Assembly: GCA_038046605.1 (NCBI GenBank) | Contig: JBBSVW010000043.1 | Coordinates: 1-53,613 of the forward strand | Direction: 5' to 3' | DNA length: 53,613 bases | Origin: Candidatus Micrarchaeota archaeon | Lineage (GTDB): Archaea; Micrarchaeota; Micrarchaeia; Norongarragalinales; SBBD01 | Part shown: positions 1 through 1,967 of the stretch, piece after piece | How positions within the stretch are numbered: position 1 is the first letter of the stretch | Layout: every line of letters starts with the position of its first letter | The notes under the pieces: generated by a model | What the model saw: the letters and a program-made list of their open reading frames with translations, nothing else | What the model was told of the DNA's origin: nothing | Databases searched by the model: none | Translations under genes and position numbers: made by a program

Positions 1-251
1 GCCGCTTAATTGGCGGCTTGCATGAATGGCGTAACGAGTGTCCCACTGTCCCTGCGTCAGACCTGGTGAACCTACTACTCAGTGAACATGCTGAGAACTT
101 CTAGGGGGAAACGAAGACCCCGTGGAGCTTAACCATAGCCTGTTGTTGATTCGCGGTTGGGTGTTCAAAGTGTAAGCAGGAGCCGTTATGTTGCACCTTC
201 TGGGGTGCAGATAGGCGAAATTGTGACACTGCTAATATTTGACTACGAGTC

Positions 252-935
252 TCATCTCGCAAGAGAAACAGCTGCAGGTGGGTGGTTTGACTGGGTGTCC
301 GAGGAGTTCAATATTTTGGCCAATACCTGGTTTTTCGCAATCCCGTAATATTTTGAAGTTGAATTGCAAACTATGCTTTCGTCAAGAAAGCGAATTTTGT
401 CTGCAAAAAGTCGTACGTTGGCTTTACCGCCGATCACGACGCCCTTCAAAGTTATTCGGTTGCGGATCTCGAGGCTTGAGAGTGCTTGTGAGAGTTGCTT
501 TCTAAGCAACGGATGAACGCAAGCTACTTCAACTCGATAATGGCTAGTCCTCTTATCAAGCAAAACGCTGCCATCGCAGGAAAAATAAGCTTGCAAAAAC
601 GGAACTAGTAATTCCGGATTTTCAAGAATTTCCACTGGAATTATTGCTGGAGGAAAAATACCTGTTGGGAAGCGCAGAGTTCGGTAAGTCGGCGAATACT
701 TCATCAGCTCAAGTGCGACTTTTTTCGAGAAAAATCGGATTGAGAGAGCATTGGAGCACTTGTTATAGGATGGATTATTCAAGCCAAAGCATTCTTGCAT
801 CAAATCTTTAAATTTTTCAAGCAAGGCATCAACCTTGTTTGTAAGCTGGATGCAATAAGTCTGCTTGCTTTTATCGAAATAAATAGAGCCGTCTGAGAGT
901 AAAAAACCAATAAGCATTGCCAAATTTTTGTCCAT
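252..935 (-). CDS. Double-motif LAGLIDADG homing endonuclease (227 aa), antisense to the rRNA intron
   Basis: Motifs LAMLIGFLLSDGS and LVPFLQAYFSCDGS with typical spacing. ATG 935 chosen because the longer track start (1052) lies in the exon and a TATA-like box precedes 935. Confidence 0.88.
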   Translation of the reverse strand: MDKNLAMLIGFLLSDGSIYFDKSKQTYCIQLTNKVDALLEKFKDLMQECFGLNNPSYNKCSNALSIRFFSKKVALELMKYSPTYRTLRFPTGIFPPAIIPVEILENPELLVPFLQAYFSCDGSVLLDKRTSHYRVEVACVHPLLRKQLSQALSSLEIRNRITLKGVVIGGKANVRLFADKIRFLDESIVCNSTSKYYGIAKNQVLAKILNSSDTQSNHPPAAVSLAR

Positions 936-1026
936 AATAAAATCATTTCGTAGAGCATATAAGGGCTTTGCAAGGGGTGATTTCGGGTGACAAATTTTAT
1001 TTTTTATGAACTCCTCAGACCAGTAA
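296..1026 (+). other. 23S rRNA intron 1 (archaeal BHB type, 731 nt), between G2252 and G2253 equivalents (P-loop)
   Basis: Canonical BHB: central helix ACTG(290-293)/CAGT(1021-1024), bulges GG|T and AA|G, intron stem GAGGAGTTCA(301-310)/TGAACTCCTC(1007-1016). Cutting after the second nucleotide of each bulge regenerates TTGACTGGGGCGGTAC. Confidence 0.92.
955..970 (-). promoter_or_regulatory. Putative BRE/TATA promoter for the antisense endonuclease
   Basis: Minus strand reads CAAAGCCC-TTATAT-GC, with TTATAT at -27 to -22 from ATG 935, as in leaderless archaeal promoters. Confidence 0.5.
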
Positions 1027-1227
1027 GCGGTACACCTTCGATAAGGAAACAAAGGTGCCCAAAGGTCAGCTCAGGAGCGTCAGAACCGCTCTGTAGAGGG
1101 TTAAACACAAATGCTGGCCTGACTGTGACTTTAAAAAAATGGGTCGCAGACACGAAAGTGGGGGTTAACGAACAACAATGGCCTTTTAATGAGGCCTTGT
1201 TCTGTCAGACAAGCTACCCCGGGGGTA

Positions 1228-1334
1228 ATTTCGTTCAATAAATATTTTTTCTAGAATTTTTTTGGCATTCACTAATTGTAATTATAGTTAGCGGATGCCT
1301 TTACGAATTCACCAATTATTGGACGGAACCTCAA
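1228..1334 (+). other. 23S rRNA intron 2 (BHB, 107 nt, no ORF), between A2450 and A2451 equivalents
   Basis: Central helix GGGG(1222-1225)/CCTC(1329-1332), bulges TA|A and AA|A, 13-bp intron stem TTTCGTTCAATAA/TTATTGGACGGAA, internal hairpin GGCATTC...GGATGCC. Splicing gives CCCCGGGGGTAACAGGCT. Confidence 0.88.
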
Positions 1335-1361
1335 ACAGGCTCGTCGCGTGCTAGAGTTCAT

Positions 1362-1558
1362 ATCTCCATTTTTTGATGACATGAGGAAAATGAAGGATTG
1401 GATTTTTAGCGCTTCGTTCGAGCAATTAGTTTTCGTTTCGGATTGCACTGGCATTGCTAGTGCATGGAGTTCTTTCTTAGTCTAGAGATGTCAGCGCAAG
1501 CTGAAGCCTGATTAATTGTTCGTACGATCGCTGGGGATTGCTTTCCGTGAGGGAAATA
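1362..1558 (+). other. 23S rRNA insertion 3 (197 nt, probable relaxed-BHB intron) in the helix 89 loop, ~U2477/A2478
   Basis: Removal restores GAGTTCATATCGACC. BHB-like fold: GTTC/GAAA helix with one G.A mismatch, bulges AT|A and TA|A, TCTC/GAGG stem. Boundary can slide up to 3 nt because ATC is repeated. Confidence 0.75.
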
Positions 1559-1967
1559 ATCGACCACGCGGTTTGGTACATCGCTATCGGCTCAGGTCAT
1601 CCTGGCGGTGCAGGAGCCGCCAAGGGTTGGGTTGTTCATCCATTAAAGACCTACGTTAGTTGGGTTCAGAACGTCGCGAGACAGTTCGGTGGCATCTCCT
1701 AGAAGTGCATTGCGGTTTGAGGGTAAGGTTCTCTGAGTACGAGAGGAACGGGGAACCGGCGCCGCTGGTATTGCAGCTGTCTTCCAAGGCAAGCTGCGTA
1801 GCTACGCGCTAACGGATAAGTCCTGAAGGCATCTAAGGACGAAGCCGTGCCTAAAACGAAACCGCATAGGCCGCTTAAAGCAGATAAGTTCGATAGGACG
1901 GGGATGTAAGAGGAAAGCGCAAGCGATCCTTGAGTCAACCGTTACTAAAGGCCGTAATCACACATTC

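What the first reader, a model, noticed from the sequence alone, without database searches (positions are those of the whole stretch)
252..1026. Homing endonuclease encoded antisense in a P-loop rRNA intron, with its own promoter and a stop codon borrowed from the exon
Seen: a canonical BHB intron splits G2252/G2253, and its only long ORF, a two-motif LAGLIDADG protein, is on the opposite strand. TTATAT lies at -27 to -22 from ATG 935 inside the intron, and the ORF runs 44 nt past the 5' splice site to stop at 252 in the exon. Known: characterised archaeal intron endonucleases such as I-DmoI are sense-encoded and expressed from the excised intron RNA. Inferred: the excised RNA cannot be the mRNA here, so expression needs transcription head-on against the rRNA operon. 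That mRNA would be complementary to the intron, the splice junction and the P-loop 5' strand, which could couple homing to splicing or silence the nuclease during active rRNA synthesis.
Basis: partly seen in the sequence, partly recalled or inferred. Interest (0 to 1): 0.85.

Follow-up and report, generated by a model that had tools for sequence, protein, structure and literature searches.

The report
Backwards homing-endonuclease gene in rRNA intron
An archaeal 23S rRNA intron in the ribosome's P-loop carries an intact, conserved homing-endonuclease gene on the strand opposite the rRNA, with its own promoter-like box, a layout shared by dozens of related tiny archaea and apparently not described before for this intron type.

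Summary
Window 1-1967 is the 3' part of an archaeal 23S rRNA (+ strand). A 731-nt insert (296-1026) splits G2252|G2253 (numbering checked on E. coli rrlH) and is bounded by a canonical bulge-helix-bulge motif. Four sister genomes have the same site uninterrupted, and RNA-library contigs of window genotype join 295 to 1027 exactly. The only long ORF (935->252, minus strand, 227 aa) is a two-motif LAGLIDADG_3 protein with a confident I-DmoI-like predicted fold.

The layout is a family trait. In 40 of 42 related loci (Micrarchaeota, Aenigmatarchaeota) the homolog lies antisense at this site or 2 nt downstream; one is borderline and one distant relative is sense. The ORFs are intact, with dN/dS 0.06-0.21. 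A TATA-like box sits about 29 nt before the ATG in 21 of 30 loci, against 3.9 expected. More distant rRNA-embedded relatives, including one in this same 23S, are all sense.

The "borrowed" exon stop is incidental. 14 of 24 homologs stop inside the intron, and the exon-encoded tail is unconserved and predicted disordered. Antisense transcription, cleavage and any coupling to splicing remain untested. Nine literature searches found no archaeal precedent; the closest is antisense His-Cys genes in eukaryotic nuclear group I introns. I rate it a new variant of a known kind.

The parts
1..295 (+). 23S rRNA exon ending at G2252 (5' strand of helix 80 / P-loop). The window starts inside the gene; the 5' part lies on contig C1.
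   Evidence: Rfam alignment. E. coli numbering. Contiguous with the next exon in four sister genomes.
296..1026 (+). 731-nt bulge-helix-bulge intron.
   Evidence: 733 nt against 2 model positions. Absent from congeners. Joint 295->1027 in RNA-library contigs. No group I/II hit at E<=10.
287..310 (+). 5' half of the BHB: outer helix 287-289, central helix 290-293, bulge 294-296 with the cut after 295, inner helix 297-310.
   Evidence: The same geometry is seen in 20 of 20 class A loci.
1007..1030 (+). 3' half of the BHB: inner helix 1007-1020, central helix 1021-1024, bulge 1025-1027 with the cut after 1026, outer helix 1028-1030.
1027..1226 (+). 23S rRNA exon starting at G2253.
252..935 (-). 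LAGLIDADG_3 homing-endonuclease gene, 227 aa plus TGA, antisense to the rRNA. Motif 1 is around D15 and motif 2 around D121.
252..295 (-). Last 14 codons and the stop of the ORF, read from the complement of the exon. The tail is not conserved and is predicted disordered.
956..963 (-). TATA-like box (TTATAT at 962-957), -28..-21 from the ATG and inside the intron. It implies a leaderless or near-leaderless mRNA.

Best explanation
This is a mobile archaeal bulge-helix-bulge intron in the 23S P-loop (G2252|G2253) of a Micrarchaeota-type DPANN genome. Its two strands do different jobs. The rRNA-sense strand provides only the splicing substrate. The host EndA cuts in the two 3-nt bulges and RtcB joins the exons, which restores helix 80. 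The opposite strand carries an autonomous gene cassette. A TATA box 64-71 nt inside the 3' end of the intron probably drives a leaderless minus-strand mRNA that starts at or near ATG 935. That mRNA encodes a monomeric two-domain LAGLIDADG endonuclease. The enzyme most likely cuts intron-less P-loop rDNA so that repair copies the intron in (homing). The gene fills the intron to its 5' edge, and where the in-intron stop has been lost, as here, translation runs on into the antisense exon until the next stop. Shown: the intron boundaries, the BHB, the antisense intact gene, its family-wide conservation and purifying selection, the conserved TATA-like box, the fold, the splicing enzymes, and empty sites in congeners. 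Inferred: promoter use and transcription start, nuclease activity and target, and homing.
For: The boundaries are set by three results. Rfam shows the insertion. Four same-genus or same-family genomes have query 1-295 and 1027-1230 contiguous (read). Contigs in three RNA studies join 295->1027: X1 is a 317-nt record with 2 differences over 26-295, and X4 has 0 differences over 211-295. Their genotype fits the window, not the three intron-less congeners compared.

The BHB central helix is fully paired in 20 of 20 class A and 4 of 4 class B loci. The inner helices differ in sequence yet still pair. EndA and RtcB are present.

The protein matches PF14528 at E 2e-14. The model has pLDDT 91.6. Foldseek finds the TliVMA intein endonuclease (2.7e-9), I-Tsp061I (1.1e-7) and I-DmoI (7e-7). 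There are 39 invariant columns, including D15 and D121, in 10 sequences.

Of 42 loci with a relative (29-71% identity on the best segment), 40 show 23S exons on the opposite strand at the same junction; one is borderline and one is sense. All 27 unique full-length ORFs are intact. dN/dS is 0.055-0.212 in 16 unsaturated pairs, while shifted-frame controls give pN/pS of 0.79-3.42.

A TATA-like 8-mer with at least 6 of 8 matches starts at -36..-26 in 21 of 30 loci. Shuffles give 3.9 +/- 1.9, maximum 12 of 30 in 1000.
Against: No transcript of either strand of the intron was seen: bins 336-1005 have zero contig cover in all four runs laid, which were contigs only, with no strand information. The joined contigs could still come from an intron-less strain of the same species. 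Run X2, which is labelled probably DNA, also holds the joint. The TATA box is weak or absent in L006 and L007, and 9 of 30 loci miss the criterion. The loci are related, so the shuffle test overstates significance. The TATA consensus I scored against is recalled. The unconstrained fold prefers a shifted register by 4.2 kcal/mol over the fold with the six bulge bases kept unpaired. HE identity and exon identity correlate (Spearman 0.55 over 153 pairs), so much of the spread may be vertical rather than by homing. No cleavage data exist.
Confidence: 0.78

Rival explanations
1. The antisense LAGLIDADG protein is domesticated. It no longer promotes homing and is kept for a host function, for example binding rDNA or acting as a WhiA-like regulator. 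It is inherited vertically with the intron.
For: Purifying selection is strong across deep divergence. HE identity and exon identity correlate, rho 0.55. There is a weak Pfam hit to the WhiA LAGLIDADG-like domain (E 0.0064, below cut-off), and WhiA structures appear among the fold matches.
Against: Both catalytic aspartates are invariant in 10 of 10 sequences. The distribution is patchy: 11 of 401 sampled genomes of the phylum match at E<1e-50, and four sister genomes have empty sites. Degenerate copies exist (L019 is frameshifted; G116 has an in-frame TAA), as expected in a homing cycle. The best fold matches are active endonucleases.
Confidence: 0.1
2. The gene is real but has no promoter of its own. 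It is expressed from read-through antisense transcription that enters the rRNA operon from downstream, and the TATA-like box is only AT-rich sequence.
For: Intron sequence near the ATG is AT-rich in general (AT 0.62-0.77 from -20 to -1). One sense-encoded intron ORF in the same 23S also has a TATA-like string about 30-37 nt upstream. No transcript data exist.
Against: The AT peak (0.87) is focused at -28..-25, and 8-mer starts cluster at -29 and -31 (13 of 27 matches with at least 6 of 8). GC-richer sequence lies upstream of the peak. The box is kept even where only 57-61 nt separate the ATG from the splice site (L008, L009, L029). No long minus-strand ORF lies in 1967-2500; the longest there is 63 aa.
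Confidence: 0.08
3. The insert is not spliced and ligated. It is an intervening sequence that is cut out and leaves a fragmented 23S rRNA.
For: Fragmented rRNAs exist in other organisms (recalled). No read-level RNA data were available.
Against: The BHB is canonical and RtcB is present. RNA-library contigs of window genotype run across the exact joint in three studies.
Confidence: 0.03

Closest known systems
Archaeal rRNA BHB introns with LAGLIDADG genes (I-DmoI of Desulfurococcus mobilis 23S; I-Tsp061I)
   Same: The intron is a BHB intron in a conserved rRNA site. The protein is a monomeric two-motif LAGLIDADG endonuclease that nearly fills the intron. The predicted fold matches solved I-DmoI and I-Tsp061I (Foldseek E 7e-7 and 1.1e-7, TM to target 0.58-0.70).
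   Different: Those genes lie on the rRNA strand and are thought to be read from intron RNA (recalled, not checked here). Here the gene is on the opposite strand with a TATA-like box of its own. Sequence identity to the solved proteins is only 17-19%. The site, the P-loop at 2252/2253, is different.
Antisense His-Cys box homing endonuclease genes in eukaryotic nuclear group I introns (I-DsqI in Dsq.L2066; Dir.S956-2 of Didymium iridis), PMC9548176 (abstract and passages read)
   Same: The homing-endonuclease gene sits inside an rRNA intron on the strand opposite the rRNA. It is proposed to use an internal promoter. The same worry arises about antisense interference with pre-rRNA.
   Different: Those are self-splicing group I introns with His-Cys enzymes. 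Their mRNAs are made by RNA polymerase II, spliced and polyadenylated, and the proposed model separates them from pol I transcription by nucleolus versus nucleoplasm. Here there is one RNA polymerase, no compartments and, as far as assembled, one rRNA operon. Splicing is protein-dependent at a BHB, and the enzyme is a LAGLIDADG protein.
LAGLIDADG genes in rRNA insertion sequences of CPR bacteria (I-ShaI), PMC11270868 (passages read)
   Same: Small-genome uncultured organisms carry many rRNA insertions that encode LAGLIDADG proteins at conserved sites.
   Different: Those hosts are bacterial, the insertions are mostly group I-like, and the proteins are mostly single-domain. In the main text the words antisense, opposite, orientation, direction and sense have 0 occurrences. 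The supplements were closed and could hold orientation data.
Group I introns of Micrarchaeota and other DPANN rRNA genes, PMC6125680 (passages read)
   Same: The host lineages are the same, and contig MNVE01000016.1, which is my L013, is in that paper's table. 21 of their 39 introns carry LAGLIDADG ORFs.
   Different: The passages shown of that table list sites such as LSU/1923, 1931, 2500 and 2593, and none at 2252. The present intron has no group I hit at E<=10 and has a BHB instead.

Membership tests
LAGLIDADG homing endonuclease (Pfam PF14528 LAGLIDADG_3, monomeric two-motif type) | Profile match above the curated cut-off | tested here: met
   E 2e-14, 54 bits against a cut-off of 22.5, two stretches.
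LAGLIDADG homing endonuclease (Pfam PF14528 LAGLIDADG_3, monomeric two-motif type) | Two LAGLIDADG helices, each ending in a conserved acidic residue | tested here: met
   D15-G16 and D121-G122 are invariant in 10 of 10 aligned sequences. Assigning them as the catalytic residues is by analogy (recalled).
LAGLIDADG homing endonuclease (Pfam PF14528 LAGLIDADG_3, monomeric two-motif type) | Pseudo-symmetric two-domain alpha-beta fold like I-DmoI | tested here: met
   AF2 pLDDT 91.6, pTM 0.88. Foldseek gives 118 PDB chains at E<=0.001, led by intein and intron LAGLIDADG enzymes.
LAGLIDADG homing endonuclease (Pfam PF14528 LAGLIDADG_3, monomeric two-motif type) | Cleaves the intron-less allele at or near the insertion site | not testable with these tools
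   This needs an enzyme assay. Empty sites that could serve as substrate exist in G131, G172, G141 and G125.
Archaeal bulge-helix-bulge intron | Two 3-nt bulges separated by a 4-bp helix, with the splice sites at symmetric positions in the bulges | tested here: met
   In the window the bulges are 294-295|296 and 1025-1026|1027, and the central helix is 290-293/1021-1024. The geometry holds in 20 of 20 class A and 4 of 4 class B loci. The unconstrained MFE prefers a shifted register.
Archaeal bulge-helix-bulge intron | Precise removal restores the conserved mature RNA | tested here: met
   Removing 296-1026 gives the same sequence as the uninterrupted site read in congener L065. The joint 295->1027 appears in RNA-library contigs. 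The contigs could come from an intron-less strain.
Archaeal bulge-helix-bulge intron | Host encodes the splicing endonuclease and RtcB ligase | tested here: met
   PF01974 gives 75.5 bits plus a second domain in one 395-aa frame on C20. PF01139 gives 569 bits on C28.
Archaeal bulge-helix-bulge intron | No self-splicing ribozyme core | tested here: met
   No group I or II family is found at E<=10 in window 280-1600.
Archaeal TBP/TFB promoter | TATA box about 25-30 nt upstream of the transcription start | tested here: inconclusive
   A box lies at -28..-21 from the ATG, and 21 of 30 loci meet the criterion against 3.9 expected. The start site itself is unmapped, no clear BRE was seen, and the consensus used is recalled.
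Antisense HEGs of nuclear group I introns (I-DsqI type) | Group I ribozyme host intron and a His-Cys box enzyme | tested here: not met
   There is no group I hit and the protein is LAGLIDADG_3. It is an analogue in layout, not a member.

The most novel reading that the evidence does not exclude
A whole family of archaeal P-loop introns has become a two-strand element. Convergent transcription within the single rRNA operon ties endonuclease expression inversely to rRNA synthesis, so the enzyme is made in quiescent cells or on freshly transferred DNA. The mRNA is complementary to the intron and to the 5' half of the BHB, so it could block BHB formation and link homing to splicing. Because the target is a universally conserved P-loop sequence and these archaea live attached to other cells, the element might also cross between symbiont and host.
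Probability: 0.12. Interest if true: 0.85.

Novelty: new variant of a known kind. Interest (0 to 1): 0.6.

Why it matters
Archaeal rRNA introns are usually described as simple elements: a BHB plus a gene read from the intron RNA. Here a conserved family places the gene on the other strand with its own promoter-like box, inside the cell's most heavily transcribed operon and in the ribosome's P-loop. This raises questions that are now testable. How does an archaeon with one RNA polymerase express a gene head-on against rRNA transcription? Does mRNA pairing with pre-rRNA affect splicing? Why is this one intron family antisense when other rRNA-intron endonuclease genes in the same organisms are sense? 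It also matters for annotation. These genes are currently 'hypothetical proteins' overlapping rRNA, and rRNA callers see only an unexplained insertion. The enzyme would also be a new nuclease with a long, universally conserved target.

Tried and rejected
- Group I or II intron: rejected. No Rfam hit at E<=10 in 280-1600.
- Chance ORF: rejected by Pfam, homologs and dN/dS.
- Start at TTG 1052, in the exon: rejected. ATG 935 is the first ATG, and the homolog N-termini align to it.
- PDB by sequence: only E 0.23 to an intein endonuclease. The fold search was needed.
- 'Borrowed stop' as a designed feature: rejected.
- RNA evidence for the antisense mRNA: the only runs offered were contigs. No contig covers 336-1005 in X1, X2, X4 or X9. 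This says nothing about a rare mRNA.
- Shares of words in all 24 runs were at most 0.21, so no habitat is inferred.
- E. coli BLAST with exon 2 found nothing. I took numbering from the annotated K-12 rrlH instead.
- HE-versus-exon identity correlation (rho 0.55) does not separate vertical from horizontal spread.
- A BRE upstream of the TATA box was looked for by eye and was not convincing.
- A terminator after the ORF: I saw no run of five or more T on the minus strand downstream of 252 when reading. This was not analysed further.
- Supplements of PMC11270868 and PMC6125680 were not seen and might list ORF orientation.
- Not in print: searches found no paper on an antisense endonuclease gene in an archaeal BHB intron (one search was the search for the eukaryotic group I precedent). 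Find-queries in PMC11270868, PMC4496867 and PMC6125680 also found none. Subscription journals are not covered.

Full report
**What is there**

Window 1-1967 (+) is the 3' third of an archaeal 23S rRNA: Rfam LSU_rRNA_archaea, 654.9 bits, model positions 2048-2987. The genome is a 1.64-Mb, 106-contig assembly. The 5' part of the same gene lies at the end of contig C1, overlapping the window by 32 nt. Right after base 295 the Rfam alignment leaves 733 nt unaligned against 2 model positions. On E. coli K-12 rrlH the four G's of the P-loop are 2250-2253.

**It is an intron of the bulge-helix-bulge kind**

- Three same-genus genomes (G131, G172, G141) and one same-family genome (G125) have window 1-295 and 1027-1230 directly contiguous, with 88-97% and 87-99% identity. 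I read the uninterrupted site in L065.
- The junctions fold into a canonical motif: outer helix 287-289/1028-1030, central 4-bp helix 290-293/1021-1024, bulges 294-295|296 and 1025-1026|1027, and inner helix 297-299/1018-1020 plus 301-310/1007-1016.
- The unconstrained two-piece fold prefers a shifted register (-36.9 kcal/mol). With the six bulge bases unpaired, the fold returns the BHB at -32.7.
- No group I or II model hits at E<=10.
- The genome encodes a splicing endonuclease (two tRNA_int_endo domains in one 395-aa frame) and RtcB.
- In four public runs, laid as contigs only, one contig each joins 295 to 1027 exactly. Three runs are RNA libraries from three studies. The fourth is labelled probably DNA.
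- The X1 record covers 26-295 with 2 differences, and the X4 record covers 211-295 with none. The intron-less congeners differ from the window at 7-18 positions in that exon, including positions 258 and 263 (L065, L066) or 221 and 260 (L067), which lie within the X4 contig. The spliced form therefore belongs to the window's own kind of organism, though an intron-less strain cannot be excluded.

**The gene**

The only long ORF over the intron is on the minus strand; plus-strand ORFs there are at most 88 aa. From ATG 935 to TGA 254-252 it encodes 227 aa.

- It matches Pfam LAGLIDADG_3 at E 2e-14.
- AlphaFold2 on a 10-row alignment gives pLDDT 91.6.
- Foldseek against the PDB returns intein and intron LAGLIDADG endonucleases: TliVMA 2.7e-9, PI-PfuI 2.7e-8, I-Tsp061I 1.1e-7, I-DmoI 7e-7.
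- Residues 214-227 are the part translated from the complement of the exon, and they are the only segment with pLDDT below 50.

**The layout is a family trait**

A protein search found 9 relatives at 43-55% identity. The alignment has 39 invariant columns, including both motif aspartates. Pattern scans returned 15 genome loci, mostly MAGs titled Candidatus Micrarchaeota plus two Aenigmatarchaeota, and 43 metagenome loci.

- Of the 42 loci L006-L047 (29-71% identity on the best segment), 40 show 23S exon sequence on the strand opposite the ORF in the expected geometry.
- In that geometry, exon 2 ends 57-161 nt upstream of the ATG and exon 1 begins at or just after the ORF end.
- One locus is borderline (L036, score 28). 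One (L020, 29% identity) is sense-encoded at another place in the 23S.
- The 16 unrelated loci L048-L063 gave exon-alignment scores of at most 22.
- In four loci (L012, L032-L034) the intron sits 2 nt downstream, at C2254|G2255, with its own canonical BHB.
- Across 20 class A loci the central helix pairs in 20 of 20. Its first pair varies as A-U (4), G-C (14) and G-U (2). The inner helices differ in sequence yet still pair.

**Selection and decay**

All 27 unique full-length ORFs are intact. For the 20 pairs with at least 62% amino-acid identity, 16 are unsaturated and give dN/dS of 0.055-0.212. The same nucleotide alignments read in the two shifted frames give pN/pS of 0.79-3.42. Over all 351 pairs pN/pS has median 0.45 and maximum 0.60.

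Decayed copies also exist. L019 is split between two frames, G345 is in two pieces, and G116 has an in-frame TAA. In an even sample of 401 genomes of the phylum, 28 match at E<=1e-10, and 11 of those match at E<1e-50. None of the other sampled genomes of the window's family match. Many MAGs lack assembled rRNA, so these counts are not frequencies.

**Promoter**

TTATAT lies at 962-957, which is -27..-22 from the ATG and 64 nt inside the 3' end of the intron. I anchored 30 non-redundant upstream regions on the ATG and scored them against a recalled archaeal TATA consensus.

- A match of at least 6 of 8 starts at -36..-26 in 21 of 30. Mononucleotide shuffles give 3.9 +/- 1.9, with a maximum of 12 in 1000.
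- Match starts cluster at -29 (8 loci) and -31 (5 loci). AT content peaks at 0.87 in -28..-25.
- The box persists where only 57-61 nt separate the ATG from the splice site.
- It is weak in L006 and L007.
- The loci are related, so the test overstates independence.

The spacing implies a leaderless or near-leaderless mRNA. That step is inferred.

**The 'borrowed' stop**

Of 24 unique loci with a mapped junction, 14 stop 5-16 nt inside the intron. The other 10, the window among them, read 22-448 nt into the antisense exon, in different frames. Apparent tail similarity between some homologs comes from reading the same conserved rRNA complement. The feature is real but incidental.

**Is antisense unusual here?**

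More distant LAGLIDADG_3 relatives that lie in or beside rRNA genes are all on the rRNA strand:

- a 223-aa ORF in a roughly 746-nt insert of this same 23S on C1;
- L020 in an LSU and L055 in an SSU;
- one ORF beside an LSU in G294;
- one ORF inside an SSU and one in the spacer in G116.

That is six sense cases against none antisense outside the P-loop family. The other 14 weaker hits fetched were not in rRNA genes.

**Comparison with what is known**

The element belongs to two known kinds: archaeal BHB rRNA introns and LAGLIDADG homing endonucleases. The characterised archaeal examples are, by my recollection, sense-encoded.

Nine full-text searches and find-queries in three papers turned up no archaeal antisense case. 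Subscription journals and supplements were not covered.

The nearest precedent is antisense His-Cys genes in eukaryotic nuclear group I introns. The authors of PMC9548176 propose separate pol II transcription in the nucleoplasm to avoid interference with pol I (passages read). An archaeon has neither two polymerases nor compartments, so the problem is posed more sharply here.

**Verdict**

The core interpretation is supported by comparative evidence. The regulatory ideas are untested, and the stop-codon point is downgraded. This is a new variant of a known kind and is moderately to highly interesting. The decisive experiments are TSS mapping on the minus strand and a cleavage assay on the empty site.

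Noticed in passing
window 1227-1333 and 1362-1558: The second Rfam gap (336 nt against 29 model positions) is really two mini-introns of 107 and 197 nt around a 28-nt micro-exon (1334-1361). They lie in the peptidyl-transferase centre. Contig joints are 1226->1334 (ambiguous by 2 nt, between U2449 and C2452 in E. coli numbering) and 1361->1559 (ambiguous by 3 nt, at or after U2477).
   Followed up: partly
L001 2696-3367 (+) = G000:C1:4327-4998: The same 23S gene holds a second LAGLIDADG_3 ORF (223 aa, E 5.9e-7). This one is on the rRNA strand, in a roughly 746-nt insert at Rfam model positions about 1189-1203. Its frame seems to end about 10 nt past the insert, and a TATA-like string lies about 30-37 nt before its ATG.
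   Followed up: partly
G000:C1:3132-6279: The 5' two-thirds of the 23S takes 3148 nt for about 2063 model positions, so further inserts of roughly 300 and 120 nt lie between model 1423 and 1893. The gene is broken between contigs C1 and C43, which overlap by 32 nt.
   Followed up: no
L012, L032, L033, L034: Homologous antisense genes sit in an intron shifted 2 nt downstream (C2254|G2255). It has its own canonical BHB with a different central helix, which looks like a case of intron sliding or re-insertion.
   Followed up: partly
L006 4001-5083: In this Micrarchaeota MAG the antisense frame stays open for 448 nt into the complement of the 23S exon, giving a 360-aa ORF. Its close relative L007 (96% identical core) stops after 64 nt.
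   Followed up: no
L076 3209-7700 (G116:C29): An archaeal 16S gene spans 4492 nt for a 1478-position model, so about 3 kb is inserts. It has one LAGLIDADG relative inside it (with an in-frame TAA) and another in the spacer, both on the rRNA strand.
   Followed up: no
G000:C20:907-1386: The splicing endonuclease candidate has two tRNA_int_endo domain matches in one 395-aa open frame.
   Followed up: no
window 1-53613: Rfam at gathering thresholds finds only the 23S fragment in the whole 53.6-kb window. There is no 5S rRNA after the 23S and no tRNA.
   Followed up: no
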